From positions 96,001 through 160,000 of IMG/VR virus record IMGVR_UViG_3300013121_000022: 64,000 nucleotides of DNA; one strand, given 5' to 3'. The notes under the pieces are model-generated. The model was not told the origin of the DNA and searched no databases. It saw only the letters and a program-made list of their open reading frames with translations. Position numbers and translations under genes: made by a program. The DNA is from a virus (lineage: Duplodnaviria > Caudoviricetes). Shown in pieces: positions 876 to 50,434 of the stretch (positions within the stretch are counted from its first letter, which is position 1; the number at the start of each line of letters is the position of its first letter).

Positions 876-1333
876 ATCAATACAAAAATGTCAAAGTAGC
901 TTTGCGAAACTTTCTGATGGAAAAGTTGAGCTTGACTGGCGAACAAGTTTTTCGTGCTCCACCTAAGCCTACCAGTATCACTCACTATCCGGCAATTATT
1001 ATTAGATCGGCGCAGACTCAAAAAATAAACGAAGACGGGCCAATCAAGAACGATCATCGAATTTTGCTTGGAATCATGACTCGCGGACGTGATCCCACTG
1101 TCGTATCAGATGAATTAGATGACCTACTTCAATCGTTGGATAATGCTGTTTCTCAATATGGGGCTAGGGGACTGGACGCAAATTTGGCCGAAAACAGTCG
1201 TTGGACAGAGTTCACACGCGCCAATGAACCCACTGACTTCAACAATGTGGTTCAGGACGATGTGGGATATGTCGTGTATGGTGTCACAGCCGGAATTCGC
1301 ATTCGAGAGGTGCTTCCAACCGATCTTGGATAA
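872..1333 (+). CDS. putative tail terminator protein
   Basis: YPAIII motif, 153 aa, directly upstream of major tail gene. Confidence 0.6.
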   Translation: MNQYKNVKVALRNFLMEKLSLTGEQVFRAPPKPTSITHYPAIIIRSAQTQKINEDGPIKNDHRILLGIMTRGRDPTVVSDELDDLLQSLDNAVSQYGARGLDANLAENSRWTEFTRANEPTDFNNVVQDDVGYVVYGVTAGIRIREVLPTDLG

Positions 1334-1373
1334 CATCATGGTACAATCATTACATCTATAACCCGTAACGCCG

Positions 1374-1421
1374 AATGCCCGGTGAGGGAGAATATCTATT
1401 CTCTTTCATTGGGCATTTTTT
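1374..1421 (+). terminator. long hairpin followed by U-tract
   Basis: AATGCCCGGTGAGGGAGAAT-atct-ATTCTCTTTCATTGGGCATT-TTTT. Confidence 0.55.
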
Positions 1422-1438
1422 CTTAAGGAGATTCAATA

Positions 1439-1936
1439 ATGGCAACAGTAACAGTAGCCAACATCATAATTGGAGCGGCAACCCTTAAACTTGACGGTGT
1501 GGACGTTGGCGCAATTTCGGGAGGTCTTTCTATTACAAAATCGACTGACGTTTACAACGTCGAAGTTGATAATGTTCGTGCGGCAGTTAAGTACGTTCCT
1601 GTAAAAGAAAACTTCTCAATCAAGACCAACTTGGCCGAAGCAACCCTCAATAACATTCGTTTGGTCTGGAACATTCCATCGAATAAATTGACCACAGGTG
1701 TTTTGCAACTAGGCTTGTCAACCGGATTGGTTGAACACACGCTGGAAGTTACAGGTATTGCTCCAAACGGTTTGACTCGTGTCTATCGAGCATTCCGCGC
1801 AATTTCTGTTCGTCCATCTGAACACGCATATTTGCGAACAAAGGAAACATTGATTCCGGTTGAATTCGACATTTTGCCAGATTTGACTCAGGCAATTGGA
1901 ACTGAACTCGGAACAATCACAGATTACAACTTCTAA
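1439..1936 (+). CDS. major tail (tube) protein
   Basis: NIIIGAA..DVGAISGG pattern of siphovirus tail tube proteins; AAGGAG RBS; upstream of chaperone and tape measure. Confidence 0.8.
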   Translation: MATVTVANIIIGAATLKLDGVDVGAISGGLSITKSTDVYNVEVDNVRAAVKYVPVKENFSIKTNLAEATLNNIRLVWNIPSNKLTTGVLQLGLSTGLVEHTLEVTGIAPNGLTRVYRAFRAISVRPSEHAYLRTKETLIPVEFDILPDLTQAIGTELGTITDYNF

Positions 1937-1992
1937 AGTCACCATCTGAATAATTCCGGTGACACCTTAAAGACAGGAGAAACGCCGAACAC

Positions 1993-2463
1993 ATGAGTAC
2001 AAAAAGAGATCGATCAAGATTTATCCCTGAACCAGTATCAGTTTGGTTGGGACAGGGAGAATACGTCAAAGAATATAAAGTCGTACCAGCGGCATGGTCG
2101 TCGCTGTATTCTTTGAAGTCTGTTTTACGATCATTACTAGAGGACGTTACCGCACTTTGGAATTCCGAAATTCTAACGAGTGTCAAGGCGGCGGTATCTG
2201 ATTCGAGTGACGAAAACGGATCGAAAATGCTTCAATCCATTTTGGTCAATGATGGATTGTGGGCTTTGGTGGATAAGATCATTGAAAAGCCATACGAGAT
2301 TTTTTCGTTGGCTATTCCTGATTTGGACTCCAATTTATTTTCTCAAGACAATCCTAATGGGGCAACCATTCCGCAAGTTTGGGAAACCTTCAAGGTTATT
2401 GCCGAAGTCAATCAGTTGGAGATAGCAAAAAACCTGCTAACGGGCAAGGGTCTGACGAACTAG
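1993..2463 (+). CDS. tail assembly chaperone (gpG-like)
   Basis: between tube and tape measure; in-frame A-AAA-AAC slippery site at 2427-2433. Confidence 0.8.
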   Translation: MSTKRDRSRFIPEPVSVWLGQGEYVKEYKVVPAAWSSLYSLKSVLRSLLEDVTALWNSEILTSVKAAVSDSSDENGSKMLQSILVNDGLWALVDKIIEKPYEIFSLAIPDLDSNLFSQDNPNGATIPQVWETFKVIAEVNQLEIAKNLLTGKGLTN

Positions 2464-2708
2464 AGATAGATAGTCTCATTGCCCGTTTGATCCTAATTAC
2501 TCATCTCTCTCCAGAGATCGTCTTGAAGATGACACCTGCACAAAGTGAAATCATCATTCAAGAGTATGTGCAAATGAATAGTTCAGAAAATGATGTACGC
2601 GAAGTTCCGCTTTCTGACATCACTAGCACTCCAGTTCAAACAGCAACGCTGGACGCCGAATCTACAGCACGATTAAAGGCTGAGATGGCTAAACTCAAGA
2701 ATCCATGA
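2427..2708 (+). CDS. -1 frameshift extension of tail chaperone (gpGT-like)
   Basis: open -1 frame (ORF 2379..2708) entered at the slippery heptamer. Confidence 0.75.
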   Translation, partial: KKPANGQGSDELEIDSLIARLILITHLSPEIVLKMTPAQSEIIIQEYVQMNSSENDVREVPLSDITSTPVQTATLDAESTARLKAEMAKLKNP

Positions 2709-5700
2709 ACACAACTGTAGGCGACATCATCCTTAAGATTGGCGCAACATTCGACTCATCCGGTACGAAGTCTTTGCAAAGCGAGATTGCAAAGACTCGT
2801 ACTGGTATCGACAGCTTGCGTCAGTCTTTAGCGCAACTCAACCAAATAAAACTTGATAATGCTCAAATCATTCAACGCCTACAATCGATTGTAAATGGCG
2901 TAATTCGATTCCGAGAGGTCATGGAATCAGTGATTGGTGTTGCATCTCGATTTGGAGCGGGTGTTGCAAATTCGCTTGGGGGGGGTATCAACAACTTTAT
3001 TGCGCGTGTCTCGCAAGCCATTAATCCAGTCAACGCTTTGCGCGGAGCGATTAGCGGTTTGCGTCGCGTATTTGATATTGCACTAGGAATTGCTCTATTC
3101 AATTCACTTCAACAGTTGACCAGTCAAGCTTTGTCAATGATCAATCAGTTGTCGCCATTGACAACGGGTGTATTGGCGGGACAAATTGATACATCGTTCA
3201 AAGCCCTGTCGATTACAGCGGCAAACGCAGGAATCACATTTGACTCTGTTCGCGATTCAGTAAATGTTCTAAGGGCATCTGGCATCAAGGCAGAGGAAGC
3301 GATTAAAGCCTTAACTCAGGGCTTGCAGATCGGACTTAAGCCCGATCAAATCAAGCAGTTGGCAGGCGCGGCTCAGAATCTTGCCGTTGTCATTGGAACG
3401 GATTCATCCGAAGCGTTCAATCGACTGTTTCAGGCGGTGGTGCGCGGCGATTCGCAAATGTTGCGATTTGCTGGCATCATGAAAACAACCGATCAAATTA
3501 TTCAAGAGTTTGCTCGTTCACATGGAAAGACAGCGGCAGAAGTTCGCGCTAATACCCTATTAATGCGTCAGGCATTTGTGGAGGGTATTCTTGGAGAGGC
3601 ATCTAAGTTTGCGGGTGTATACGAAGCATCTCTAACCGAACTTCAAAAACGTATCGGTTCATTTAGTCGAACCTTTCAAGATTTACAAATCGGCATTGGT
3701 GGAATTTTTACCCCATTACTGGCAGGTGGATTGGGTGGAGTTGAAGAACTTACCGAACGTATTTCGCGACTGTTTTTTGTTACAAAGAAACAGGCCGGAG
3801 AAAATTACGGCAAGATTCTAGCCGATCAACTCAATCAAGCCACTGCCGAACAAATCAAACTAACTGGTAGCACCGAAAGTTACACACAGGTTCAAGCCCT
3901 TACGCAAAAACAAGTATTCTCGCTTGGGGCGGCATTTGACGCTTATCGTACCGCATCAACTACAGGTGGGGACAAAGCAGTTAAAGCGCAAGAGGAATTG
4001 AATGCAGTTTTGATCAAAGTCTCGAAATCCACTGGAGCGAGTATTGATCAACTCAAGAAGCTTGGTGAAACCGGAAAATTATCCTTTGACACCATTGTAA
4101 AGGAAGGTAAGGCGTTTGATCCGTCCAATTTGGCTGTAGGTCTATATTCTCTCAATAAAGCCCTTGCAGGCTTGTTTGAGGACGGTATGAAGGCAGCTCT
4201 TGGAAATGCCTTCAAACAAGTCAAATTGGATTCGCCAGAGGGTATTGAACAAGCCATTGACTGGGGCATCAACTTGGTCGCTGGATTCTCCAATGGTTTA
4301 TTACAGGGTATCAACAATACGCTTGTTCCCGCGCTCGTTTCGGTAGCACAAACCGTTGTTAGTTTCTTGGGTATATTTAGTCCGGCAGAGCAAGGGCCAC
4401 TTGCTCAGGATATGTCCAAGTGGGGATCAAATCTTGGTGAGTCGTTTGCCGATGGTATTACAGAGGGAACTCCAGCGGTTGCTAATGCATCCGAAGAAAT
4501 GGCGCAAACAGTTGCCGACAACCTGAATCCAGAGGAATCGCCAATTCTATCTGCAATTCAAGAGTATGGTCGTACAATATCTCGTGCTCTTTTGACTGGT
4601 CTTAAAATTCAAGATTTCAGTGAACTCAATTTCTTGGGCGGAATCGCTCAAAGTTTACTTGGTGGAGGCCAACAGGACTCGCAGGGACTTCAAAATTCAG
4701 AACGCGCCAGAGAATTAATTGCTCAGGCGTTGAATGATATTCGCTCAGGCGGATCGGTAGCACAAGGTACATTGTCGAGTTTACAAGGCTTGCTTGGCAA
4801 CGCCTTTCAGGATTACGCCAAATACTTTGATTTACTAAGTCAAGTTACAGATGAGGAAGAATTTCAAGCCGAAAGCGAAAAGAAGTTGGCGCAAGCGAAA
4901 GATGAAATTGCATCCGCCACAGATCGTGTTCGTGAAGCAACTGAACGACTTCGCCAATTTGAGCAGGATACCGCCGATATTCCAGAACGTTACACTCGTG
5001 GGCGCAGACGCCAGTTGCAGGAAGAATTAGATGCCGCTCGTCAAGAGGAAGAAAAGCGACGACTGGCCGCACAGCAACTATCTGAGGATATTCAAAAGAA
5101 AGAAGACGCCAACAAAAAGATTCGGGAACAAATCGCGCTTCAACGTGCTTTGATTCAAGAACTTGCCAGACAAGCGGCGGCACAAGCGCAGATCAACAAA
5201 CTGACTCAGCAAACACCACAACCCAATCCAGTGGACGTGGCCGCAGTTACCAGTCGTTTAGAAGAATTGGCCGGAAAATTACCGGACAAGATTCGAGAGA
5301 AGTTGATTAGGGCATTTGCGCCAGTACGCGAAGAATTCGACAAGCTGCTTGCTTTTATTAATGGTGCTCTTGGTAAAGAGTTGAACTTACCATCTAACTT
5401 TGCTAATTTATCTCAAGAAGAACAACGAGATATTTTGCAGAGTCTTACTCCATCTTATGCGGCTGGAAAAGATTTTGCCAAAGCGTTAGGTGGAATTGGC
5501 GGATCGCTCAAAGGTGCGTTTGATGGCGTCTTGGCGTTTTTCAATAGTCCAAACGTTCAAAGCGGACTCAAACTAATCAAAGATATTTTGAGCACCGACA
5601 CTGGTAAAAGTGTAATCACCTTTGCTATTGGTGGTTTGTTGTTGAACAGTTTGTCGGGCGGATTGTTAAGTGGAATTGCTCGATTCTTGTTTAGCACAAC

Positions 5701-7514: not shown

Positions 7515-7528
7515 GATCGGCGCAGATC
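7515..7528 (+). repeat. dispersed 14-bp motif GATCGGCGCAGATC (representative copy)
   Basis: perfect copies at 7515, 19009(-), 29192, 38380, 45400, 46558; 13/14 at 29561, 50361; 12/14 at 1005, 33497(-), 43998. Confidence 0.9.
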
Positions 7529-18313: not shown

Positions 18314-18829
18314 CTACAACTCAATGTACTTGCGCCATTCTTCCTTGATCTCTCCACCAAACCGAGAAATTACAAAGGTGTTGCCTCTTGGCGTCTTTGG
18401 TTCACTCAGCAACTTCATGCCTGCCTCATTGGGCGTCCTGCTTCCCTTTTTGGTATTGCATTTCTTGCAGGAGCAAACCGTGTTACCCCAAGTGTTTAAT
18501 CCCCCTTTGGACTTGGGAATAATGTGATCAACAGTGGGAGCTTTCCATTTGTTACTCTTGTCGGTTGTGATACCGCAGTATTGACAAATGTGGTTGTCAC
18601 GCTTGAACACGCCTTGACCACTCCACACAGCGCCACGTCGGGGTACATTGATGTATCGCTTCAACACAATTACACTTGGAATTTCAAATACAATCGACTG
18701 AGATCGAACGTGCTTGCCAGTTCCCTCTACAAAATTGGCGCGTTCATTCAAAATCAAATTGATTGCTCGTTTGTCGCTCATAGTTGCATGAGGCGATCCG
18801 TCTGCGTTCAATACCAGAACTTGAGTCAT
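18314..18829 (-). CDS. HNH endonuclease (McrA/HNH_5-like)
   Basis: VLVLNAD..RDNHICQYCG..TVDHIIPKSKGG..WGNTVCSCKKCNTKKG. Confidence 0.92.
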   Translation of the reverse strand: MTQVLVLNADGSPHATMSDKRAINLILNERANFVEGTGKHVRSQSIVFEIPSVIVLKRYINVPRRGAVWSGQGVFKRDNHICQYCGITTDKSNKWKAPTVDHIIPKSKGGLNTWGNTVCSCKKCNTKKGSRTPNEAGMKLLSEPKTPRGNTFVISRFGGEIKEEWRKYIEL

Positions 18830-18853
18830 GTTTGTAATTCCTTTCTTGAAGTG

Positions 18854-18927
18854 TACTCCCGACAGGACTTGAACCTGCAACCTTGAGATTAAAAGTCTCT
18901 TGCTCTACTCTATTGAGCTACGGGAGC
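18854..18927 (-). tRNA. tRNA-Lys(UUU)
   Basis: cloverleaf on minus strand, loop CTTTTAA. Confidence 0.9.
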
Positions 18928-18932
18928 ATAGG

Positions 18933-19005
18933 TGCATCCGGTGGGACTTGAACCCACAACCTTGAAATTAAGAGTTTCCTGCTCTGCCAATTGAGCTACG
19001 GATAC
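18933..19005 (-). tRNA. tRNA-Lys(CUU)
   Basis: cloverleaf on minus strand, loop CTCTTAA. Confidence 0.9.
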
Positions 19006-19153
19006 ATCGATCTGCGCCGATCATAACACATTGGTCGGTTAGTTGTCAATCAACAACTGGAGTGGAATACACTAACACAACGCCCAAAGTTGGTTGAACT
19101 TCTTTGCAATACACTGCCGAGATCGACAGTTACGATAAACAACACTTCCTGAT

Positions 19154-20262: not shown

Positions 20263-21357
20263 ATGAAAATCAAAACCGATGTATTACTCTCCGCACTATC
20301 TGATACACTCAAAGCAACAAAAGAAAACGCAACAAACCCAACGCTGGCCTACATCAAAATAGAAAAAGACACAGACTCAAATCGCTGTTCGTTAGTTGGA
20401 ACGAACATGGAGTTTACCGTTGGCCGAACTATCGATGTTGAGGGAAATGAATCTGTTTCGCTGTTGATTGATGGCAGAAAAATTCACGACATCATTTCAT
20501 CTGTGCCTGACGAGTACATCACCGTTACTATTCTATCTCAAAAAATTAAAGTGTCGAGTTCGATTAGCGAACTTACTCTATCAACTTTGGTTGCTGATGA
20601 TTTTCCAAAAGTTGACAACGGTGGAGAACGTGCCGCACTGGTAAGCTCAGATTCTTTGGCGCTTTGGAGAGAGGCGATGTGGTGTACATCTTCTGATGTC
20701 CATGATACCTTTAAGAATGGTGTCAACCTAACGTTTGATAAGTCGGGTAAATCCATTCATGTTGAAACAGGGAATGGATTTAGATGCTCTATTCTGAAAT
20801 GTCCGGCGCAAGAGGTTTATGGCAACTTCAATGCTCTTGTTCCAGTAAACAACTTGATCAAAATGATGTCATTGGCAGTTGAAGACGTATTTGGCATTTT
20901 TGTCTCTAGCTCTTATATTGTCTTTCAATCCAAAAATGGTTTTACTCGATCTGCGCTGATCGAAGCAAAGTTTCCAGAATGGTTGTCAAAAATCAAAAAG
21001 ACTACTTTGGTCGGAATCAAAGTTGACCGAGATTCAACCCTGCAATCTCTCAAGTCGGCCTTGATTGTTGCTAAGGATTCAGCGAACAAGGTGATCTTGA
21101 CGTGGGACAATACTCAAATTCATATTCACGCCGAATCGGAAACCGGAAACGTAGATTTGCATGTTCCGCACAAAGGCTTGATTGGAGATCAGAAAGTCTC
21201 TTTCAAGATTGGTTTTGACTGTATATCGTTGCGCGATGCGCTGACGTTCGGCGGAGATGTTACTATGTGGTTGACTTCTAGTGATCTGTATGCTCGTTTT
21301 AGTCGAGAAAAAGATGATTGGATTGGAGTAGTTATGCCACGAAAGGTGTCACAATGA
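20263..21357 (+). CDS. dnaN: DNA polymerase III beta sliding clamp
   Basis: ~364 aa; P.LAYIKIE, GTNME, DDFP, TGNGFR, SALIEAKFPEW, C-terminal VVMP. Confidence 0.85.
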   Translation: MKIKTDVLLSALSDTLKATKENATNPTLAYIKIEKDTDSNRCSLVGTNMEFTVGRTIDVEGNESVSLLIDGRKIHDIISSVPDEYITVTILSQKIKVSSSISELTLSTLVADDFPKVDNGGERAALVSSDSLALWREAMWCTSSDVHDTFKNGVNLTFDKSGKSIHVETGNGFRCSILKCPAQEVYGNFNALVPVNNLIKMMSLAVEDVFGIFVSSSYIVFQSKNGFTRSALIEAKFPEWLSKIKKTTLVGIKVDRDSTLQSLKSALIVAKDSANKVILTWDNTQIHIHAESETGNVDLHVPHKGLIGDQKVSFKIGFDCISLRDALTFGGDVTMWLTSSDLYARFSREKDDWIGVVMPRKVSQ

Positions 21358-21972: not shown

Positions 21973-22554
21973 ATGCGATCTCGGCGAATTGTTTTTACGT
22001 CCGATCAACATTTCGGGCACGCGAATATCATCAAGTATCAACATCGTCCATATAAAAATGTGGACGAGATGGATTCTGCCTTAATTGAATCGTGGAACGC
22101 AAAAGTCGATCACGATGATATTGTGTTTCATCTTGGAGATTTTACACTTGGCGATGAACGACAGGCCGCAAGATATTTCTCTCGACTGAACGGGGCGATT
22201 GGCGTTGTACGCGGCTCGCACGATGACAGATGGTATAAAAATTCGGTTTACTATCGATCTCGATCTGGAATTCCAGTAAAGTTACTCGGAGATCGTTTCG
22301 ACTATTCATCTGCGATGATCGGTGAGGACGGGCGTAATCTGTTGATCGTGATGTCTCATTATGCAATGGCGCGATGGCCGATTTCGCATTATGGATCGCT
22401 ACATGTATTTGGACACTCACATGGAAACTTTGAAGGCATCGGAAAATCAGTTGATGTTGGGGTTGACGTTTATCCAAACCTATTGTATATTGAGGAAGTA
22501 GTCGAAATCTTGGCGAAAAAATCATCACCTGAGAACCATCTGAGAAAGAGTTGA
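21973..22554 (+). CDS. calcineurin-like metallophosphoesterase
   Basis: SDQHFGH, HLGDF, GSHD, SHY, GHSH motifs. Confidence 0.92.
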   Translation: MRSRRIVFTSDQHFGHANIIKYQHRPYKNVDEMDSALIESWNAKVDHDDIVFHLGDFTLGDERQAARYFSRLNGAIGVVRGSHDDRWYKNSVYYRSRSGIPVKLLGDRFDYSSAMIGEDGRNLLIVMSHYAMARWPISHYGSLHVFGHSHGNFEGIGKSVDVGVDVYPNLLYIEEVVEILAKKSSPENHLRKS

Positions 22555-22556
22555 AA

Positions 22557-23126
22557 ATGGGACAGCGATATTACTTTCCGAACGTCAAAAACTGGCAAGA
22601 TGCCTTGAATAGCTTGGATTTGGGGTTACAACATTTTGGGTTTACCATGAAGTTGTCCGGCGTCATGTTTCAGGGTATGGGCAAGACGGTTGTGCTTGTG
22701 TTGCCTTCCTCTGAACTTCCTCATGCCGCAGTTGAAGTTGTCGAACTTGATGCCGAGCAAGCGGCGGCATTGGTCAAGCAAACCGATCAACCCGAAGTGT
22801 TGGCTGGACACGATGGACAAGACAAGGTATGGGTTCGTAAACTTCAATATGAAGTGTCGGGTCATACACAACAACAAGTTTGGTGGGCGGATCACTTTAC
22901 CTGCCAGTATTGTGGACGTGGATTGCCGGAAGTTCAGTTGACCATCGATCATTTTCATCCGCTGGACTTGGGCGGAGTAAACGATTCGAGCAACTATCTG
23001 ACAGCTTGCAAGAAATGCAATAAGAATAAGGGCAATACGCCTGCTTTGAAGTGGTGCGCCGACAATCATCTGGATTACAATTTGCTGGTTGATTATTTGC
23101 GCCAGAGAAAATTAACTCGTAAGTGA
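22557..23126 (+). CDS. HNH endonuclease
   Basis: CQYCG..TIDHFHP..GG..NYLTACKKCNKNKG. Confidence 0.88.
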   Translation: MGQRYYFPNVKNWQDALNSLDLGLQHFGFTMKLSGVMFQGMGKTVVLVLPSSELPHAAVEVVELDAEQAAALVKQTDQPEVLAGHDGQDKVWVRKLQYEVSGHTQQQVWWADHFTCQYCGRGLPEVQLTIDHFHPLDLGGVNDSSNYLTACKKCNKNKGNTPALKWCADNHLDYNLLVDYLRQRKLTRK

Positions 23127-26183: not shown

Positions 26184-26898
26184 CTCATATACACAAATGC
26201 AGAAAAAATATTACGAAGAAAACGCGACGATAATGGCAGTGGAGGATCATCGCGGCCACAATAACAATCCAGATTATTACGGAATTCTATTATCAGACAT
26301 CACAACCAATCCAGAATACTGGACTGGTAAAACCGCCCTAGACTTTGGTTGTGGAACTGGACGAAATATTGCCAATCTGTATCGTTTAGCAAAGTGGAAA
26401 TTTGTCGATGGTTGCGACATTGCGCGAAACAACTTGTATGAAGCACATCGTTTATTGACGGAACGTGGTGTTTCCGGTTTTACACTTTACCCCGTCTCAG
26501 GCGTTGATCTTGGTGGTATCCCAAGTAAAAAATATGACTTTGTAATGTCAACCATTGTTCTTCAACACATCGCCGTGTGGTCAATTCGACTGAGTATTTT
26601 AACTGACATCTTTCGAGTGATGAAATCGGGCGGATTATTCTCGTTTCAAGTTGTTAAATATCCGTTGCCGCGAGATCGATATAATATCGCTGACTATCAT
26701 GAAGACAAATGGGATGCGCCAAATACAAATGGAGGGTACGATTTTAGCGTAGATAACGAACAAGATTTGATAAATGACTTGACACGCATTGGGTTTGAAG
26801 TGATTGAAACAATAAGCAGACCTGAATGGGAATATATCAATCAAGAATACGCTCACAATAACAATCGTTGGGTATTTGTTAAGGCGCGTAAACCATGA
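26170..26898 (+). CDS. class I SAM-dependent methyltransferase
   Basis: LDFGCGTGR, YDFVMSTIVLQH, K.GG. Confidence 0.9.
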   Translation: MDANNSYTQMQKKYYEENATIMAVEDHRGHNNNPDYYGILLSDITTNPEYWTGKTALDFGCGTGRNIANLYRLAKWKFVDGCDIARNNLYEAHRLLTERGVSGFTLYPVSGVDLGGIPSKKYDFVMSTIVLQHIAVWSIRLSILTDIFRVMKSGGLFSFQVVKYPLPRDRYNIADYHEDKWDAPNTNGGYDFSVDNEQDLINDLTRIGFEVIETISRPEWEYINQEYAHNNNRWVFVKARKP

Positions 26899-28747: not shown

Positions 28748-29196
28748 TGTTCATGAATGAAACTGGTATTTCCATAGGATTTGATACGGTAATTCCACCA
28801 AACGATTTTTGCGTTTTTGTTGTACCCATATTTGATATCAAGTAGTCATTCGTTTTCACCGAGCAAACCGCCTGAACTTAGATGCTGTAGAGTTGCTAAC
28901 ACAGACCTGAGTGTTGTAGTTGAATCAATTAATTTCCGCTCACGTAACGAAAATTTTTTTGGAGCTGTTTTTGCTCTGTATGCTCTAACCGCAGGATCGT
29001 TATCCAAAATTATTACATTGGAAAAACCTCAAGTCTGCTTCTCTGTTCTATCACAATCTAATTCAGGTCGTTCAAATCACCGATTGGCGGTTGAGGCATT
29101 ATACTGCGACAAACCCATTGTGTTTGCATATGTAGATCGACATCGAAAGACATTCCTTGACTTAGTTGCTGAACTAGGGTAATATCAACGTGATCG

Positions 29197-29570
29197 GCGC
29201 AGATCAAGTTGTCGAGCTCGAAAGAGTTAGGAACTTCCCGACGATACAGGAGCAATCCTGAAAACCCTCCACATGAAAACAGCAAGTGTGGACAGTTCGA
29301 CTGAACTGATGTCAACGGCAACAGAGAACATTCCGCTCGAAAGAGTAACGGGTGAAAAGGACGGTGATACCCGTCCGGCATGTCAAGGTAACTTGCTTGC
29401 ATAGGCGACAGGACAGGGGATCGCAAGGTGGCGCAAGATAGGCTACGGTTTATCTTGTAGAACCGCAGTATAAACGGTACGACAGAATAACACTCAGTCG
29501 CACTAGGATATACCATCAACCCGATGAGAAAGATGACAACCTAAACAGAATCGGGGGTATGATCGGCGCA
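29197..29570 (+). ncRNA. rnpB: RNase P RNA (phage-encoded)
   Basis: AGGAACTTCCCGAC pairs with AAACAGAATCGGGGGTAT (P4, bulged U); GCAACAGAGAAC..CCGC; GGGTGAAAAGG; GCAAGG; P2 GTTGTC/GACAAC; GAAA-capped P3. Confidence 0.88.
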
Positions 29571-29649
29571 GATTGGTTCTTGACAAAAAAATATAACCGA
29601 TCCATAATAATCTCAACTTCCACTATCTCACAGAAAGAGGATACCGAAC

Positions 29650-32651: not shown

Positions 32652-32888
32652 CAAAATTGAAGCACTGCTAGTCGATTTACATCGATGGGGAGTGCTTCAA
32701 TGTATTATCCGACAAGATCAAATGTTTTGCACTCCACCTGTAGCCGGACGTCCATCAATTGTTGATATGTTTGAAGTTGAATGGAGCGTTCATTCAGTCA
32801 AAGACGTTCCAGAGATCGTCTTGTACGTGACGGACACTACAGCCTACACGCGATTGCACAAATGGAATCAGAAAGAAAGCTTACTGAC

Positions 32889-33614
32889 ATGGACAATCTA
32901 AAAGAGATTGGGCAAACATGGATTGTTGAATTTCCAAGAACAAAACATCTTCCATTTCGCCCTAACGCCACTCGTGATGACCTAATTGCTACCCAAGTTC
33001 AGGCAAGCATTATTTTTGATCCGGCAGTTGTCGTATCAACAACTGAAAAAGTAGACGGGGCACAATTGGGAGTTGGAATTGTTGATGGTAATCTTTGTAT
33101 CCGCAACCGAAATCACGTGCTCAATAAAGGTTATCTCAGTCGCGGGGCGGCAGGCCGACAATTTGCGCCAACATGGACGTATTTTTACAAGCGAATTGAA
33201 GCACTAAAGGCAATGGAAAAGTTCGCAGGTGAGCCTTTGGTAATTTACGGAGAGTGGTTGTATGCGGTTCATTCAATTGTTTATGACACTTTAACTGTTC
33301 CGTTTTTGAGTTATGATATTTATTTGCCGGAACAAAAGATATTTATTAAAGGTGCTCTGGCTAGATCGCTACTAGAAAACTTTGGATGGTCAGTTGTTGA
33401 ACAACTTGAAAACAAGGGATCGTATGAAGAATTGTCGAAGTTGTGTCACCAAAAATCGGCCTATGGATCGACTAAGCGAGAGGGTGTTTATCTGTCGGTC
33501 TGCGCCGATAAAAAATCAGTCACACATCGATTCAAAATGGTACGTTCAGATTTCATTACTGGTGAACACTGGTCTAAGCGATCTATTATCAAGCAACCTA
33601 TGGTGAGGTTTTAA
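32889..33614 (+). CDS. RNA ligase-family nucleotidyltransferase
   Basis: FPRTKHL, EKVDG, YGEWL..HSI.Y, EGVY, KMVR. Confidence 0.85.
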   Translation: MDNLKEIGQTWIVEFPRTKHLPFRPNATRDDLIATQVQASIIFDPAVVVSTTEKVDGAQLGVGIVDGNLCIRNRNHVLNKGYLSRGAAGRQFAPTWTYFYKRIEALKAMEKFAGEPLVIYGEWLYAVHSIVYDTLTVPFLSYDIYLPEQKIFIKGALARSLLENFGWSVVEQLENKGSYEELSKLCHQKSAYGSTKREGVYLSVCADKKSVTHRFKMVRSDFITGEHWSKRSIIKQPMVRF

Positions 33615-38262: not shown

Positions 38263-38394
38263 CGATCTGCGTGTTTTTGATAAGTTGAAATCGATGGAAG
38301 ATACAATACCCTGTCTCATCGGGCGAATCAAGAACCAACCAGAAACGGGATGCGATTTCAAGAGTAAAGGGATTTGAGAGATCGGCGCAGATCG
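38263..38394 (+). ncRNA. candidate structured ncRNA (~130 nt)
   Basis: promoter at 38226; CGATCTGCG/CGCAGATCG and TTGAAATCG/CGATTTCAA nested stems. Confidence 0.55.
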
Positions 38395-39254: not shown

Positions 39255-39590
39255 ATGATGCAACGTAAAGATAGTGATTGCATCATTATTAATAATATCT
39301 GTGTCCTATCTGTCTGGTCTGGTTTGGTCAGAGAAAAACATCGGAACACTAGGCGAAGATTTTCGAGCAGATTTCATAAATTGGTTTATGCGCGATGGGC
39401 TTGTCAGTCCAATGACAATCGCGTTGAAGGGTGCGCCTCTGTAACCGCACTCCCATAACATGAGGCAAAGCTTGTAAGAGACAAGTGGAAGTAGGGTTTT
39501 CAAGTCTGCTATCTAATAACCACACTCCGTCACTAGGGAAGCGTGAGCCGAAACGATGTGGCGCAGAGGAAAAACTTGCAGACATGCACA
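39255..39590 (+). ncRNA. candidate structured ncRNA
   Basis: ATGATGCAA/TTGCATCAT hairpin; TGTCTG/CAGACA long-range pair; several hairpins. Confidence 0.5.
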
Positions 39591-43190: not shown

Positions 43191-43412
43191 CCTGCTTAAT
43201 GATGGGTAGCGTCCATCCGAAATCCGAACGTTATCGGAATGTTGATGGCATAGTATCTTTATGTGTTCACCGAGAATTGCGCGATCAACTTATGGTCAGC
43301 CATAAAGAGACACCTGCTGATGCTGACGTTGCATATTGGTCGGGCAGAAACCCGAATAACCAACGCAACCGAGTCGAGTGGTGTGACTTCCCCGTAGAGA
43401 GTAACGGTGCTT

Positions 43413-43487
43413 GCAACTATAGCTCAGTTGGTTAGAGCGTTTCGTTGACATCGAAAAGGTTCACAGGTTCGAGTCCTGTTAGTTGCA
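43413..43487 (+). tRNA. tRNA-Val(GAC)
   Basis: TTTCG-TTGACAT-CGAAA. Confidence 0.92.
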
Positions 43488-43578
43488 CAAACGTTTTGCT
43501 TCATGGGCAAGACGGGTCAAGCGGAACGGTGGGTTCAATTCCCTGCAACGACAAACGTGCATTCGCTTGACTAGAAAC

Positions 43579-43737
43579 GCTTTCAAAGAAATCCTCTGGC
43601 CTTGCCATTGCAGGGTAGTCCTGAAAAATTTTCCTTAGCGGGAAGAAAGAGCAAGGCGGCGAATCACGAAATGGCCGAAGTAACGGGTCGGCTAAACGCT
43701 AAGAGAAAGTGTCCGGCACATTGATTTCTTTGAAAGC
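43579..43737 (+). ncRNA. candidate ncRNA closed by a 15-bp stem
   Basis: GCTTTCAAAGAAATC/GATTTCTTTGAAAGC; inner CTTAGCG/CGCTAAG. Confidence 0.55.
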
Positions 43738-43768
43738 ATTTCTATAAACTCTCGAAAGGAACTTGAAC

Positions 43769-44260
43769 ATGAAAACTATCGCTGGAATTTTACAGTTGGC
43801 TTTGTGGGTGATTGGTCTGCCAAGTCTGATTGTTATCGGATTGATTGAGGCCGGACTTAAAATTACCACAAAGATCGTTACGTTGGTGTTATTGATTTTG
43901 TTTTTGTTTGTAACACCATTTGCGCTATTGTTTGCGGGAGTGGCAGGCATGACTCCGGCTGAAATGTGGAAAGTCTTGAAGGTAATTCTTCGGGCAAACT
44001 CGGCGCAGATCATTGGTCATAAGATTTACGAGATTGGCGCAGAACACGCCGAAGACTCCAGCAAGGATCACAAAACGGATGGGGTTGTAGTTGAAATTTT
44101 GGCAACTCGACAGGATTTTGAAAACATTCGCGATCAGGCCAACGAACAATTGCTTTGGTTTTCCAACATGACGTTTCGTTCATTGGGAACGACTGAGAAA
44201 TTCATCTACAGCTTTTATCTGGTCAACCTGCAACTTGACAAGTGGAAGCGACGCAAGTAA
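43769..44260 (+). CDS. membrane protein
   Basis: AAAGGA RBS; N-terminal TM helices. Confidence 0.65.
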   Translation: MKTIAGILQLALWVIGLPSLIVIGLIEAGLKITTKIVTLVLLILFLFVTPFALLFAGVAGMTPAEMWKVLKVILRANSAQIIGHKIYEIGAEHAEDSSKDHKTDGVVVEILATRQDFENIRDQANEQLLWFSNMTFRSLGTTEKFIYSFYLVNLQLDKWKRRK

Positions 44261-44267
44261 AATATAA

Positions 44268-44465
44268 CCGTTGCCGACTTGATTGAAACTTCTACGGAAG
44301 TGGACGGGCAACGCTGAAATCAGCGATGGATCGATAGGTGATCTAACAACTCAGAAAGAGCATGGTGTTCCGAAGCTCCCTTATCCGTCAGTCAATGAGT
44401 CGCTCGATGCCTACACCGGAGGCGAATAGCGAACAAGAAGCTTAGCAAAGCATAAGCCACAACGG
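44268..44465 (+). ncRNA. candidate multi-branched ncRNA (~200 nt)
   Basis: CCGTTG/CAACGG closure; GACTTGATTGA/TCAGTCAATGAGTC; hairpins ACTTC-TACG-GAAGT and CGCTG-AAAT-CAGCG. Confidence 0.55.
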
Positions 44466-44559
44466 ACATCGCTAAAAAAAGTGGTATAAGGCGACATAAT
44501 TTGAACCACCAAACAGATTGTTTATGCAATCTTACCCAATCAATTGCTGTCGCATATTT

Positions 44560-45304: not shown

Positions 45305-45431
45305 ACTATAAACGCAAGCGATGCCGCCGACAAGTACGATGCAATTTATGCACTGATAACCGAATTGGTAATTCAGCCAAGAACGGGATCAAAAAAGCAG
45401 ATCGGCGCAGATCATCTCGTAAAAACAACAT

Positions 45432-46334: not shown

Positions 46335-46719
46335 CACACAACACGAGTTGTTGATCATCGTGCAAGGAACAGTAAGCATTGTGGATGGATGTATTACAGG
46401 TAGATGGACATTTGCAAAGCGTGGTCAAAATTACGATGTCAAGTTAGTAAAACAATGTGTACTCAATCGGGTCTAGGCAATGTCTCAGATAGGAGCTCCA
46501 CTTCATTTGAGTAAGTCCGACAGTCGAAAGCGATCTAATAAGGCTGGAGCTGAAAAAGATCGGCGCAGATCAACTTTATCACACTACAGGAAGCGATTCC
46601 ACCTAAGAAGCAATACGAGTTTGGTAGGCGACTGAATGGACTTGATTCGCGGCAAGGTCTAAACAGTGAACGTACAATGAACGAAAACATCAAACGCCTT
46701 GTGTGATAAAATCTCTGCA

Positions 46720-47632: not shown

Positions 47633-47825
47633 GTTGTTAGCATTGAGAGTGTAGCACATTTTTGATTGACGCCGACTTGTTGCGTCGGACGTGCTATCAC
47701 ACGACAATCAAAAGTCCCTCACAAGGGATAAGTTGTCAGGCAACCATTGATAGATGTGACAATGAAAGGGCTACCGGAACTTATCCGGTTTCGATCTTGA
47801 TCGAAACCCTCTCAATGCTAACAAC
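47633..47825 (+). ncRNA. candidate pseudoknotted ncRNA closed by a 17-bp stem
   Basis: GTTGTTAGCATTGAGAG/CTCTCAATGCTAACAAC. Confidence 0.6.
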
Positions 47826-47959
47826 TAATTTACAAGTAGTAGCATATAACATACGATAGCATAAGGCTGACTACTTTGAGGCTGAAGCTTGGTTGCAAAC
47901 AATTAGTAAGCCGGAACAGCTCTGACTACGCGAAGTTGTATGCTGTTGCTTGTAAATTA
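47826..47959 (+). ncRNA. candidate ncRNA closed by a 25-bp stem containing G-U pairs
   Basis: 47826-47850 pairs with 47935-47959. Confidence 0.6.
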
Positions 47960-47963
47960 ATCT

Positions 47964-48035
47964 GCCGCTGTAGGCTAATGGATAAACCGCTAGTCTTCGG
48001 AACTAGCTTTCAGGGTTCGAGTCCCTGTGGCGGCG
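47964..48035 (+). tRNA. tRNA-Arg(UCG)
   Basis: CTAGT-CTTCGGA-ACTAG. Confidence 0.88.
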
Positions 48036-48148
48036 CTGAGTTATCTGGTTGCTTGCACGAGATGGATCGATACGTTGACGTGAGTTATTCTCAATAAAAT
48101 TTATGTATTGGCGTGAAGAACCAAACATAGAAATAACCAGACGTTTAT

Positions 48149-48367
48149 ATGACCGAACTTGTTCGCGAACTAATCAATAAACTGCTAGACGGAAAGCGGA
48201 TTTATCTTCCTAACGGACAAGTAATCGGCATGGGAGAAGATTTTTCAATCGGTTATATGTATATGACTCAGAGTGGCGAATGGTTCGTTGGTGCAATAAC
48301 CATTGACTTGACTGGTCTGGTTCAGGTAATAGAAAAATACAATCTCTCTCTTGATAATGTTCGCTAA
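48149..48367 (+). CDS. hypothetical protein
   Basis: ORF track. Confidence 0.5.
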   Translation: MTELVRELINKLLDGKRIYLPNGQVIGMGEDFSIGYMYMTQSGEWFVGAITIDLTGLVQVIEKYNLSLDNVR

Positions 48368-48369
48368 AT

Positions 48370-48441
48370 GCTCTCGTTCGTTAATGGATAAACGACAAAG
48401 CTTCTAACTTTCCCCTGTGGGTTCGACTCCCGCCGAGAGTA
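48370..48441 (+). tRNA. tRNA-Arg(UCU)
   Basis: loop CTTCTAA. Confidence 0.85.
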
Positions 48442-48446
48442 CACTT

Positions 48447-48653
48447 ATGATCAAAAAACAAAAAGTCAATCCTAACGCCATTGCGTATCCCGAAGTTACT
48501 GGATGGACGTGGATCGGAAATTCAAGTAAAGAAACCGCCGATGAAGCAGTACGTGGATACCAAGTGGCATTTCCAGAATACAAGAAATTACGGGCAGTTA
48601 AGTTTGTTGTGCCAGATACAAAAATCAAGTTTGCGGTATATATGAAGGCTTAA
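48447..48653 (+). CDS. hypothetical protein
   Basis: ORF after tRNA. Confidence 0.5.
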   Translation: MIKKQKVNPNAIAYPEVTGWTWIGNSSKETADEAVRGYQVAFPEYKKLRAVKFVVPDTKIKFAVYMKA

Positions 48654-48655
48654 AC

Positions 48656-49537
48656 ATGAACACAAAAATGACTCGAACCTACAAACCCTATAAGTCTCTG
48701 GAAAATACATTTGCTGAACATGGACTGAAACTTAAGGTTGTATCTGATCCAATTACTGGACGCGGAAACAAAAATCAGGCGCAGATCGATATTACGGGCA
48801 ATCATTTTCGTTTGTACGCTGGCAAGAATCCTGAAACCAAAATTGCTGTGCAACACGCCGATGGCAAACACATTTTGCTGATGGTGAACGAACCAGAGAC
48901 GACATTCAAAACCGAAGTCACTCACCCAATCAAACGAGACAAGATCATCAAGGTTGTTCCTAAACAATCAAAATGGTCAACTGAAAAATATCTAATTGAA
49001 CGTATTTTACCAGCAGGTGTACGGCACTTTTTGATGGGTCAAGACGAGCGCGGCTTGTTTATTTCAACTGTAGCCAACGTCACGACTGTTCAAAGCGCAT
49101 TGAATTCATTGAAACGCAAGCCAATTGTTGAGGCCGAGAAAAAGGTCAAGGTCGTTCGTCAAGGTGAATGGTTCTTTGTTCCGGCGACCAAAGAGGAAGT
49201 ACACTCGATTGAACTGAGTGGCATAACACATCGCAATCATTCAATTGGTGATGCAACCAAAGTTCGCAGTGGCAAGCCTCATGTTGCACAAGAATTGGTG
49301 GTTGCCGAAATTTATCCGCTTGGACATTTCTTGCCGGAAGTCGAATTGGGTTATAACCTAACACGCTACAACAACGATCCGGTTGTGAACAACATGAACA
49401 CTCCTTATTATTTTGCGGTGTTTGTTCGCGGTAAAGTTGCACATGAAGATCATAAGTCGGTTCAGTTCAGTTGCTGGATGAAGGTCATCAAGAATAACGA
49501 ACGTCCTAATGTTACGGGCGGAAAGTGGTTTGATTAA
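48656..49537 (+). CDS. conserved phage hypothetical protein
   Basis: 293 aa, RQGEWFFVP..H..HEDH motif. Confidence 0.7.
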   Translation: MNTKMTRTYKPYKSLENTFAEHGLKLKVVSDPITGRGNKNQAQIDITGNHFRLYAGKNPETKIAVQHADGKHILLMVNEPETTFKTEVTHPIKRDKIIKVVPKQSKWSTEKYLIERILPAGVRHFLMGQDERGLFISTVANVTTVQSALNSLKRKPIVEAEKKVKVVRQGEWFFVPATKEEVHSIELSGITHRNHSIGDATKVRSGKPHVAQELVVAEIYPLGHFLPEVELGYNLTRYNNDPVVNNMNTPYYFAVFVRGKVAHEDHKSVQFSCWMKVIKNNERPNVTGGKWFD

Positions 49538-49706
49538 TTCTTGACAGTATCAGAACTTGTGATACAATTCCGTTCATCATTGCAGAGCACACTTAGAAAG
49601 TTGAAAAAATACTTTCAGCACCTGTGTTTCTTTCGTGAAGTTGCCGAGTGGTAAAACCTAACTTCAAGCCGAACGCTTATTGCTGTGCGATAACAGCAAT
49701 GACAAT

Positions 49707-49792
49707 GGCCTTGTGGTGGAACTAGGTAGACACAGCAGACTCAAAATCTGCCGCCCTAAAAAAGCGTGAAGGTTCGACTCCTTTCAAGGCCA
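49707..49792 (+). tRNA. tRNA-Leu(CAA)
   Basis: GCAGA-CTCAAAA-TCTGC, class II. Confidence 0.92.
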
Positions 49793-49894
49793 CACGTTGG
49801 TTTGCGGAATAGGCGACAGCAAACATCTGGATCGGCATTACGCGGAGTCTTCCCTGCCGATGAATAAATGAAGACCTTGACCTATTCAAATTGA

Positions 49895-49966
49895 CGCGGG
49901 GTAGAGCAGTGGTAGCTCGCTTGGCTCATAACCAAGAGATCGCAAGTTCGAGTCTTGCTCCCGCTA
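49895..49966 (+). tRNA. tRNA-Met(CAU), initiator-like
   Basis: CGCGGGG 5' end with C1:U72 mismatch; loop CTCATAA. Confidence 0.88.
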
Positions 49967-49970
49967 CTTT

Positions 49971-50043
49971 GGCTAGTTTCGTTAATTGGATAAACGGGTA
50001 GTCTCCAAAACTATTCCTGAGAGTTCGAGTCTCTCACTGGCCG
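49971..50043 (+). tRNA. tRNA-Trp(CCA)
   Basis: GTAGT-CTCCAAA-ACTAT. Confidence 0.88.
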
Positions 50044-50045
50044 CA

Positions 50046-50276
50046 ATGCGAATTCATTTCGACAGAACAAAATTTGATCTTGTATTATTCGGTGCTCGTT
50101 CGCAAGGGTGTCAGTTTGTTTTTCAAGATCGAACCTATAAATTCATAGGCAACAAGAAGTACGCAGATGTTGCCAACAAAATCTTTCATGGATGGGTTAT
50201 GGATTACACAATGGAAGACGCCAAACGTTATACTCGTTGGGCGAAAGAAGTATGTCAGCGTAGTTCAGATGGATAG
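50046..50276 (+). CDS. hypothetical protein
   Basis: ORF; 3' end overlaps tRNA-Arg. Confidence 0.45.
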   Translation: MRIHFDRTKFDLVLFGARSQGCQFVFQDRTYKFIGNKKYADVANKIFHGWVMDYTMEDAKRYTRWAKEVCQRSSDG

Positions 50277-50327
50277 AACGCATTCCTGCGAAGAATGAGG
50301 TCGTGAGTTCGAGTCTCGCCGTTGACA
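50254..50327 (+). tRNA. tRNA-Arg(GCG)
   Basis: CATTC-CTGCGAA-GAATG. Confidence 0.88.
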
Positions 50328-50328
50328 C

Positions 50329-50358
50329 AAGCACTCATTATCATGGGTGCTTTTTTTA
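50329..50358 (+). terminator. intrinsic terminator
   Basis: AAGCACTCAT-tatc-ATGGGTGCTTTTTTT. Confidence 0.85.
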
Positions 50359-50434
50359 TTGATCGGCGCAGAGCGCGCCTTTAATATTGACACTTGAAAT
50401 CAACTAAGGGACAATTAAGAAAAGGAAAACATTC

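What the first reader, a model, noticed from the sequence alone, without database searches (positions are those of the whole stretch)
1005..50374. Dispersed near-palindromic 14-mer GATC-GGCGCA-GATC at promoters and RNA ends
Seen: six perfect copies (7515, 19009 minus, 29192, 38380, 45400, 46558) and several near copies (29561, 50361, 1005, 33497, 43998). Perfect copies lie largely outside confident CDSs and follow the direction of transcription. One overlaps the -10 of the minus-strand tRNA-Lys promoter, one lies near the rnpB start, and two sit just upstream of TTGACA boxes (29580; recA 50387). Inference: an operator for a phage regulator (stoperator-like, potentially sensitive to GATC methylation), or a GAUC/GAUC RNA hairpin acting like boxB.
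Basis: partly seen in the sequence, partly recalled or inferred. Interest (0 to 1): 0.7.

Follow-up and report, generated by a model that had tools for sequence, protein, structure and literature searches.

The report
Genome-wide invariant 15-bp phage DNA word
An uncultured 172-kb, tRNA-rich phage carries about 40 copies (22 perfect) of one asymmetric 15-base DNA word, most likely the docking site of an unidentified phage DNA-binding protein; similar word systems are known, but this one points in large genome blocks rather than with the genes.

Summary
GATCGGCGCAGATC occurs 6 times in the window and 22 times in the 172.5-kb phage genome, against 0.006 or fewer expected. A further 7 copies have one mismatch and 11 have two. 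The unit is a sharp-edged 15-mer: base 15 is a purine in 29 of 29 copies, flanks are random, and the core is TCGGCGCAGA. The two perfectly palindromic versions never occur, so the asymmetry is selected.

It is read in all six frames, so the signal is in the DNA. Non-coding positions are enriched, but 26 of 40 copies lie inside genes.

"Follows transcription" holds in the window (11 of 13) but not genome-wide (24 of 39). All 11 copies from 160 kb to 17 kb are antisense to firmly called genes. Orientation is clustered in large domains (8 switches, p = 1e-4).

Four of 29 copies lie 0-8 nt after a host-type -10 box (p = 2e-4), and two overlap one.

Best reading (0.4): docking sites of one phage sequence-specific DNA-binding protein, like operators or stoperators. 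Rivals are T5/tf-like nick sites, a polar replication or recombination signal, and an RNA element, which is poorly supported.

This scan has noted comparable dispersed words in other phages.

The parts
7515..7528 (+). Perfect copy. It sits between a stop codon and the start codon of the 1014-aa tail-region gene, 1 nt after a TTTACT-16-CATAAT promoter-like site.
19009..19022 (-). Perfect copy. Its first three bases complete the -10 box (TATGAT) of a TTGACA-18 promoter. It lies 3 nt upstream of two minus-strand tRNA-Lys genes, which are followed by an HNH endonuclease gene.
29192..29205 (+). Perfect copy, 6 nt after TTGACT-17-TAATAT. Its bases 5-14 form the 5' strand of helix P1 of the RNase P-like RNA (29196-29574).
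29561..29574 (+). One-mismatch copy (last base T). It is the 3' strand of the RNase P P1 helix, and a TTGACA-17-CATAAT promoter starts 5 nt downstream.
38380..38393 (+). Perfect copy, 14 nt before an ATG start. It pairs with CGATCTGCG at 38263 to close a roughly 130-nt promoter-driven RNA (fold z-score -2.0).
45400..45413 (+). Perfect copy, intergenic, 18 nt upstream of tRNA-Asn (45432).
46558..46571 (+). Perfect copy in an ORF-free spacer. The surrounding 365 nt fold no better than shuffled sequence (z +0.97).
20948..20961 (-). One-mismatch copy (GATCAGCGCAGATC), antisense inside the sliding-clamp gene.
50361..50374 (+). One-mismatch copy between the terminator that follows tRNA-Arg and the TTGACA (50387) promoter of the recA/uvsX-like gene.
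1005..1018 (+). Two-mismatch copy inside a + strand gene.
33497..33510 (-). Two-mismatch copy, antisense inside an RNA-ligase-family gene (32781-33614).
43998..44045 (+). Two two-mismatch copies 34 nt apart (43998 and 44032) inside one + strand ORF.
63331..63525 (-). A 64-aa HTH_17 protein gene, the only hit to that family in the genome and a candidate reader of the motif. It lies at the head of the early region, where the motif orientation domains meet. The adjacent early promoter (63566-63600) has the half word GATCGGCG in its spacer.

Best explanation
The 14-mer is the body of an invariant, asymmetric 15-bp DNA word, GATCGGCGCAGATCR, with core TCGGCGCAGA. About 40 copies are maintained by selection around the whole 172.5-kb genome of an uncultured siphovirus-like phage. 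It most likely serves as the docking site of one phage-encoded, sequence-specific DNA-binding protein that binds as a monomer or an asymmetric complex and acts genome-wide. Shown: the word is real, it acts at the DNA level, it is asymmetric, and it is organised in orientation domains. Inferred: at the 4-6 copies that overlap the -10/+1 region of host-type promoters (RNase P RNA, minus-strand tRNA-Lys, a tail gene, an antisense promoter at genome 6572), binding would repress initiation, as an operator does. Also inferred: the copies at gene ends and inside genes would act as orientation-dependent roadblocks or architectural sites, as in the L5 stoperator and P1 C1 operator networks. The reader protein is not identified; the small HTH_17 protein at window 63331-63525 is one candidate.
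For: Over-representation: 22 perfect copies against 0.006 or fewer expected, and it is the top k-mer of the genome by far. Edges are sharp, flanks are random, and base 15 is a purine in 29/29 copies. The symmetric versions GATCGGCGCCGATC and GATCTGCGCAGATC occur 0 times. The word is read as DLRRS, ICAD, RSAQI, IGAD or DRRRS in all six frames with ordinary codons, so the signal is in the DNA and not in a peptide. 14/40 copies are not fully coding against 17% expected (p=0.005); for perfect copies it is 10/22. 4/29 copies lie 0-8 nt after a sigma-70-like -10 box on the motif strand, against 0.28 expected (p=1.8e-4), and two more overlap TATGAT. The register relative to the predicted start differs between sites, which suits an operator better than an RNA leader. 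No T7-type RNA polymerase or sigma-70 region 2 was found, so host-type promoters are the relevant ones. Precedents exist: more than 20 asymmetric 13-mers in L5 (PMC9283540) and 22 asymmetric 17-bp C1 operators in P1 (PMC8546580).
Against: Orientation follows transcription for only 24/39 copies, and all 11 copies from 160 kb to 17 kb are antisense to the genes. 26/40 copies lie inside genes, some more than 500 nt from a boundary. No repressor was identified among 109 distinct proteins scanned. No tyrosine integrase was found, so the phage may be strictly lytic. No relative is close enough to test conservation of the sites.
Confidence: 0.4

Rival explanations
1. Site-specific nick sites. A phage nickase cuts one strand within the word in packaged DNA, for example G/GCGCAG, as in T5/BF23, Pseudomonas phage tf and phiKMV-like phages.
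For: Known phage nick sites are exactly this kind of object: short, nearly invariant, asymmetric words placed without regard to genes or frames. Phage tf has 14 copies of TACT/RTGMC, and phiKMV-like phages use CGACxxxxxCCTA/CTCCGG (PMC3517423). The T5 major-nick consensus R/GCGCRGG matches the core G/GCGCAGA at 7 of 8 positions. The phage is a large siphovirus-like phage with a tRNA array and two HNH endonuclease genes. Motif orientation is independent of transcription over a 33-kb domain.
Against: In phage tf all sites are on one strand, and nicks in T5 and in phiKMV-like phages are likewise described as strand-specific; here 16 sites are on one strand and 23 on the other. The excess at -10/+1 positions is unexplained by nicking. 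The resemblance to T5 was noticed after the fact. The phage is not T5-like; its nearest cultured relatives are Streptomyces BE-cluster phages at 25-28% portal identity. No physical data are available.
Confidence: 0.2
2. A polar guide or barrier for a DNA-tracking machine, in the manner of Chi, KOPS or Ter sites or a lagging-strand priming signal. Orientation would then be set by position relative to an origin, a terminus or the genome ends, not by genes.
For: Orientation is strongly clustered: 8 switches among 39 sites (permutation p=1.2e-4). Switches fall in long gaps, mean 8.4 kb against 3.4 kb for same-strand neighbours (p=9e-5). A two-arm model fits 34/39 sites, against 24/39 for transcription. 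In that model the arrows diverge between 16952 and 26775, just upstream of the terS-like gene at 26804, inside a block of genes that all run the same way. They converge between 146361 and 160471, at the head of the early region. The density, about one site per 4.3 kb, is Chi-like. The phage encodes RecA/UvsX, UvrD-like and SNF2 helicases and a sliding clamp.
Against: Known polar motifs of the Chi and KOPS type are 5-8 nt. GC skew at fourfold-degenerate sites and tandem-repeat scans show no origin or terminus at the switch points. The 57-76 kb block is consistently '-' and coincides with a minus-strand gene block, so transcription is not irrelevant. The two arms would be very unequal, about 133 kb against 39 kb. 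The physical genome ends are unknown; the 141-bp terminal overlap looks like an assembly artefact.
Confidence: 0.15
3. An RNA-level element: a GAUC/GAUC hairpin like boxB, a 5' leader, or a pairing module that closes terminal helices of non-coding RNAs or pairs sense copies with antisense copies.
For: Two copies form helix P1 of the RNase P-like RNA. The copy at 38380 pairs with an inverted 9-mer to close a roughly 130-nt RNA. Copies in the early region would be perfectly complementary, as RNA, to copies elsewhere in the genome. This last point is inference.
Against: 15/39 copies are antisense to the local genes. The purine at base 15 is conserved relative to the motif, not relative to the transcript. 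The hairpin has only a 4-bp stem. Nearby partners of 9 nt or more occur at 2/22 sites against 7% of control positions. The spacer at 46336-46700 folds no better than shuffles. Predicted start sites fall at motif positions 1 to 10.
Confidence: 0.07
4. A word defined by the host, such as a DNA-uptake sequence, a host regulator box or a host Chi site, or a footprint of a mobile element.
For: Uptake sequences are similarly invariant and occur both in genes and between them. This rests on general knowledge.
Against: Scans of 2.9 million viral contigs and about 186,000 bacterial and archaeal genomes returned only single copies per record. The three viral records re-scanned whole each held one copy. 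The flanks share nothing, and there are no target duplications or paired ends.
Confidence: 0.05

Closest known systems
Operator/stoperator network of Cluster A mycobacteriophages (L5 gp71, TipsytheTRex repressor; PMC9283540)
   Same: Both have more than 20 copies of a 13-15-bp asymmetric word spread over the whole genome. Some copies sit in promoters, and others sit at short intergenic gaps or at stop and start codons.
   Different: In L5, orientation tracks transcription and the sites are mainly intergenic; the phage is temperate and has a known two-domain repressor. Here 15/39 copies are antisense, 65% lie inside genes, no repressor or tyrosine integrase was found, and the genome is three times larger.
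Phage P1 C1 repressor operators (22 asymmetric 17-bp sites dispersed over about 94 kb; PMC8546580)
   Same: The number of sites, the asymmetry, the dispersal over a large genome and control of scattered promoters are similar.
   Different: P1 operators act at promoters. Here only 4-6 of 29 copies overlap promoter-like sites, and no C1-like protein was identified.
Localized nick sites of T5/BF23, Pseudomonas phage tf and phiKMV-like phages (PMC3517423)
   Same: Both are short, near-invariant, asymmetric words whose position ignores genes. The core G/GCGCAGA resembles the T5 consensus R/GCGCRGG.
   Different: Known nick systems are described as strand-specific (shown for every site in tf); this word lies on both strands in blocks. 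Nicking is untested here.
ParB-family sites (parS, KorB operators of RK2, Noc-binding sites)
   Same: These are 13-16-bp words dispersed through genes and spacers. The phage encodes a ParB_N/Noc-like domain fused to a DNA methylase.
   Different: Those sites are true palindromes bound by dimers. Here the asymmetry is invariant, and the fusion protein has no recognisable ParB helix-turn-helix.
Chi, KOPS and Ter polar sequences
   Same: Orientation is organised in chromosome-scale domains, and the site density is similar to that of Chi.
   Different: The word is 15 nt rather than the 5-8 nt of Chi and KOPS, it occurs in a phage, and five sites do not fit the two-arm pattern.

Membership tests
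Cluster A-type stoperator/operator system | Many copies of one asymmetric 13-17-bp site across the genome | tested here: met
   There are 22 perfect, 7 one-mismatch and 11 two-mismatch copies, and the symmetric variants are absent.
Cluster A-type stoperator/operator system | Site orientation correlates with the direction of transcription | tested here: not met
   Only 24/39 copies are co-oriented, and 11/11 are antisense between 160 kb and 17 kb. Gene strands were checked with a dicodon model.
Cluster A-type stoperator/operator system | Sites lie in promoters and short intergenic spaces | tested here: inconclusive
   Non-coding positions are enriched (14/40 against 17% expected, p=0.005) and -10/+1 overlap is enriched (p=1.8e-4), but 26/40 copies lie inside genes.
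Cluster A-type stoperator/operator system | A cognate monomeric repressor and a temperate lifestyle | tested here: inconclusive
   No tyrosine integrase was found. One HTH_17 protein was found. No repressor family appeared among the scanned proteins. Serine integrases were not searched.
P1 C1-type dispersed operators | Asymmetric operators that overlap the promoters of scattered operons | tested here: inconclusive
   4/29 copies lie just after a -10 box and two overlap one. The remaining copies are not at promoter-like sites.
Phage nick sites (T5, tf, phiKMV) | All sites lie on one DNA strand | tested here: not met
   16 sites are on the minus strand and 23 on the plus strand, arranged in blocks.
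Phage nick sites (T5, tf, phiKMV) | A physical single-strand interruption at the site in virion DNA | not testable with these tools
   Only an assembled contig is available.
boxB/nut-type RNA hairpin | The element is present in the sense transcript and forms a stable stem-loop | tested here: not met
   15/39 copies are antisense. The stem has 4 bp, with -4.5 kcal/mol for the word and -2.2 for its complement.
parS/KorB/Noc palindromic sites | Dyad-symmetric site | tested here: not met
   Positions 5 and 10 are always G and A, there are 0 symmetric copies, and base 15 is a purine in 29/29 copies without a mirror partner.
Chi/KOPS/Ter polar motifs | Orientation set by replication arm or genome end | tested here: inconclusive
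   A two-arm model fits 34/39 sites and the clustering has p=1e-4. No independent marker of an origin, terminus or genome end was found.
DNA uptake sequences | The same word is highly repeated in the host genome | tested here: inconclusive
The host is unknown.
Bacterial RNase P RNA class A (for the flanked RNA at 29196-29574) | Reaches the Rfam gathering score | tested here: not met
   The match scores 58.9 bits against a gathering score of 100. It is a full-length alignment with E=2.8e-17.

The most novel reading that the evidence does not exclude
The word is a genome-architecture signal and not a gene regulator. It would be a long (15-nt) polar signpost or barrier, or a set of nick sites that alternate between strands, read by a phage-encoded DNA-tracking or DNA-cutting machine. 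Its orientation domains would be anchored at the terS/packaging start and at the head of the early region. That would make it a phage counterpart of Chi, KOPS or Ter sites, which has not been described.
Probability: 0.2. Interest if true: 0.8.

Novelty: new variant of a known kind. Interest (0 to 1): 0.55.

Why it matters
Dispersed invariant words are the visible half of genome-wide control systems in phages, such as the L5 stoperators, the P1 C1 operators and the still unexplained T5 nicks. This example sits in a large, apparently lytic, tRNA-rich phage with no close relative. It shows two unusual properties: orientation domains that ignore transcription over 33 kb, and reuse of the word as the closing helix of a phage RNase P-like RNA. 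Identifying the protein that reads it would reveal how a 172-kb phage coordinates or marks its genome. It could also shed light on the old question of what site-specific marks in large siphovirus genomes are for. The word is also a simple handle, as a 15-mer bait, for pulling out that protein.

Tried and rejected
Compositional bias was rejected: Markov models of order 1-5 expect 0.006 or fewer copies, and GATC and GCGC are at expectation.

A peptide-level repeat was rejected: the word is read in six frames as five different peptides.

A phage-polymerase or sigma promoter was rejected. No PF00940 or PF04542 match was found (the PF00940 control also found nothing, so that negative is weak). There is no fixed-distance -10 element downstream, and many copies are antisense.

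The cyanobacterial HIP1 palindrome GCGATCGC has 0 copies.

Comparative tests led nowhere. There was no megablast hit in phages. Exact-word scans of viral and bacterial collections gave only single copies per record. Portal relatives at 50-63% identity are fragments of 2.6-12 kb without the word. No relative of the tail protein was found. The exact-protein look-up was empty. Streptomyces phage BillNye, the nearest cultured kin, has no analogous high-copy k-mer in 100 kb.

The idea that the 134-aa genes ending at 1125 and 166526 are paralogues that preserve the word was rejected.

A link to the His-rich peptide tag was not significant: 2 of 8 sites are adjacent, roughly p=0.09 by my own estimate. 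The ACACGATCAA words are that peptide tag and not a second DNA motif.

No origin or terminus signal was seen at the orientation switch points, either in fourfold-site skew or as tandem repeats or iterons.

A temporal-class model (antisense copies = early genes) was rejected. Genes carrying the His-rich tag in one co-directional block carry both orientations, and the strongly promoter-rich tRNA region is co-oriented.

A search for a reader protein found only one HTH_17 protein, one ParB_N-methylase fusion and two HNH endonucleases. Nothing ties any of them to the word.
Full report
**What the window is.** The window is bases 96001-160000 of a 172,504-bp virus record with 43.3% G+C. Its 141-bp terminal overlap looks like the overlap of a circular assembly rather than a true terminal repeat; that is my inference.

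The phage is siphovirus-like, with a tape-measure protein. It has a portal and a terS-like gene. The window alone holds 43 tRNA genes. Other genes include:
- a sliding clamp and a RecA/UvsX-like recombinase;
- UvrD-like and SNF2 helicases, RtcB, a PARP-like protein and topoisomerase IB;
- a ParB_N-DNA methylase fusion and large polyvalent proteins;
- two HNH endonucleases.

No T7-type RNA polymerase, sigma-70 region 2 or tyrosine integrase was found. The nearest cultured relatives are Streptomyces BE-cluster phages, at only 25-28% portal identity.

**The observation.** Two more near copies exist, at 20948(-) and 44032.
- Genome-wide there are 22 perfect, 7 one-mismatch and 11 two-mismatch copies.
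- About half of the 18 three-mismatch matches exceed the shuffled expectation of roughly 7.5.
- Markov models up to order 5 expect 0.006 or fewer perfect copies.
- The word is the most repeated k-mer of the genome by a wide margin.

**Anatomy.** Aligning the 29 best copies shows random flanks and a sharp edge. Base 15 is a purine in 29 of 29 copies, so the unit is GATCGGCGCAGATCR.

Weaker copies keep the core TCGGCGCAGA, which has 34 copies, and lose the outer GATC letters. Half words outside full copies occur at about chance.

The word is a quasi-palindrome, yet the two symmetric versions never occur. The asymmetry itself is therefore selected.

Inside genes the word is read in all six relative frames, as DLRRS, ICAD, RSAQI, IGAD or DRRRS, with ordinary codons. 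The selection therefore acts on the DNA and not on a peptide.

**Where it lies.**
- 14 of 40 copies are not fully coding, against 17% expected (p=0.005).
- For perfect copies the figure is 10 of 22, and several overlap a stop codon through T+GA.
- Still, 26 of 40 copies are inside genes, some more than 500 nt from a boundary.
- Four of 29 copies lie 0-8 nt downstream of a sigma-70-like -10 box on the motif's own strand, against 0.28 expected (p=1.8e-4). These are genome positions 6572(-), 56887, 103515 (window 7515) and 125192 (window 29192).
- Two more copies, window 19009(-) and 29561, supply the GAT of a TATGAT box.
- The predicted start site falls anywhere from motif position 1 to 10. That variable register suits a DNA operator better than a defined RNA leader.

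**Orientation.** Genome-wide only 24 of 39 do.

All 11 copies from 160,471 through the record ends to 16,952 are antisense to + strand genes. A dicodon model calls those gene strands firmly, and Pfam supports several of them: the ParB-methylase, an ADP-ribosyltransferase and topoisomerase IB.

Orientation is nevertheless far from random:
- there are only 8 switches among 39 ordered sites (p=1.2e-4);
- switches fall in long gaps, mean 8.4 kb against 3.4 kb for same-strand neighbours (p=9e-5).

The domains are:

| Region | Motif strand | Local genes |
|---|---|---|
| 160 kb to 17 kb | - | + |
| 26-57 kb | + | mostly +; the copies at 39575 and 46647 lie in - genes |
| 57-76 kb | - | - (also five weak copies) |
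| 76-155 kb | + | + |

The 76-155 kb domain has three exceptions. One is at genome 115009 (window 19009), in a minus-strand tRNA-Lys/HNH cassette. The other two are antisense copies at genome 116948 (window 20948), in the clamp gene, and at 129497 (window 33497), in an RNA-ligase-family gene.

The switch between 16,952 and 26,775 lies inside a block of genes that all run the same way, just upstream of the terS-like gene at 26,804. A two-arm model fits 34 of 39 sites. I found no independent sign of an origin, terminus or genome end at the switch points.

**RNA uses.** A relaxed Rfam search finds a full-length RNase P class A match at 29196-29574 (58.9 bits, E=2.8e-17, below the gathering score). 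Its P1 helix is formed by the copy at 29192 pairing with the near copy at 29561.

The copy at 38380 pairs with an inverted 9-mer at 38263 to close a roughly 130-nt promoter-driven RNA, with a fold z-score of -2.0.

These look like local reuse of a self-complementary word and not its general function:
- nearby partners are no commoner than at control positions;
- the spacer around 46558 folds no better than shuffled sequence;
- the stand-alone hairpin has four base pairs;
- 15 copies would be transcribed as the complement.

**Elsewhere.** Exact-word scans of IMG/VR and of about 186,000 prokaryotic genomes returned only single copies per record. Three long viral records that I re-scanned whole had one copy each.

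Portal relatives at 50-63% identity are short fragments without the word. BillNye has no analogous k-mer. Conservation across relatives could therefore not be tested.

Notes from this scan report the same word in other windows of this genome. They also report comparable dispersed words in several unrelated phages. Those notes served as leads only.

**Interpretation.** The data establish a DNA-level, asymmetric, highly specific recognition word under selection. The most economical reader is one phage-encoded sequence-specific DNA-binding protein, for three reasons:
- the word overlaps promoters in variable register;
- it is enriched at gene boundaries;
- the L5 network (more than 20 asymmetric 13-mers, PMC9283540) and the P1 C1 network (22 asymmetric 17-bp operators, PMC8546580) are precedents.

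I put this reading at 0.4. It is not a member of the stoperator family as defined, because the orientation rule fails and no repressor or temperate lifestyle is evident.

The rivals are:
- **Nick sites (0.2).** The core resembles the T5 consensus R/GCGCRGG, and known nick words look just like this (PMC3517423). However, known nick systems are strand-specific.
- **A polar replication, recombination or translocase signal (0.15).** This reading best explains the orientation domains. It lacks any precedent at 15 nt and any independent landmark.
- **An RNA element (0.07).**
- **A host-defined word or a mobile-element footprint (0.05).**

**Verdict.** The feature is real and statistically overwhelming. 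I class it as a new variant of a known kind, the genome-wide phage recognition word. Its orientation-domain structure is unexplained and would deserve attention if the phage or its sequencing reads become available.

Noticed in passing
window 29196-29574 (+): A phage-encoded RNase P class A-like RNA. The covariance-model alignment is full length at 58.9 bits, E=2.8e-17, below the Rfam gathering score of 100. It has its own TTGACT-17-TAATAT promoter, and its P1 helix is built from two copies of the dispersed word.
   Followed up: partly
window 18314-19022 (-): A minus-strand cassette inside a plus-strand region: a promoter with the word, two tRNA-Lys genes (CTT and TTT anticodons), then an HNH endonuclease gene. 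It looks like a mobile endonuclease-tRNA module. A second HNH gene lies at window 22551-23126 (+).
   Followed up: partly
L125:16860-16945 (genome 56,860-56,945, +): A promoter-like site, a one-mismatch copy of the word (GATCGGCACAGATC) and a strong terminator hairpin follow one another within about 90 nt at the end of a gene block. This could be a roughly 50-nt small RNA that starts with the word.
   Followed up: no
window 63566-63600 (+), next to the HTH_17 gene at 63331-63525 (-): The first early-region promoter (TTGACG-17-TATATT) carries the half word GATCGGCG in its spacer. It lies about 40 nt from the start of the genome's only HTH_17 gene, which reads away from it on the minus strand.
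   Followed up: no
genome 8-50 kb (L123, L124, L125): The repeated words ACACGATCAA and GATCAACTTACTCA encode a His-rich peptide tag (K-H-x-P-G-x-H-D-Q-x-x-H-G) found in many large proteins. Two copies of the DNA word (14774 and 16952) lie within 45 nt of such tags.
   Followed up: partly
genome 8036-18028 (L123): An unusual gene set for a phage: a ParB_N/Noc-like domain fused to an N6/N4 DNA methylase, a RelA/SpoT-domain protein, an ADP-ribosyltransferase, a zeta-toxin-like kinase and a type IB topoisomerase. A PARP-like protein (61062-62315, -) and RtcB (43245-44483, -) lie elsewhere.
   Followed up: partly
whole genome: GC skew at fourfold-degenerate sites is mostly negative (-0.07 to -0.27) from about 168 kb through the record ends to about 54 kb, and scatters around zero (-0.10 to +0.15) in the rest. 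The break points do not match the motif orientation switches.
   Followed up: no
window 56493-56562: A 15/30-nt tandem repeat (TCCGCCTGTGGTCAC, about 4.5 copies) lies inside the 625-aa gene that carries a C-terminal SH3-like domain.
   Followed up: no
window 50375-64470: This 14.1-kb stretch has no copy of the word with two or fewer mismatches, the second-longest such gap in the genome. It spans the region where the two orientation domains meet.
   Followed up: partly
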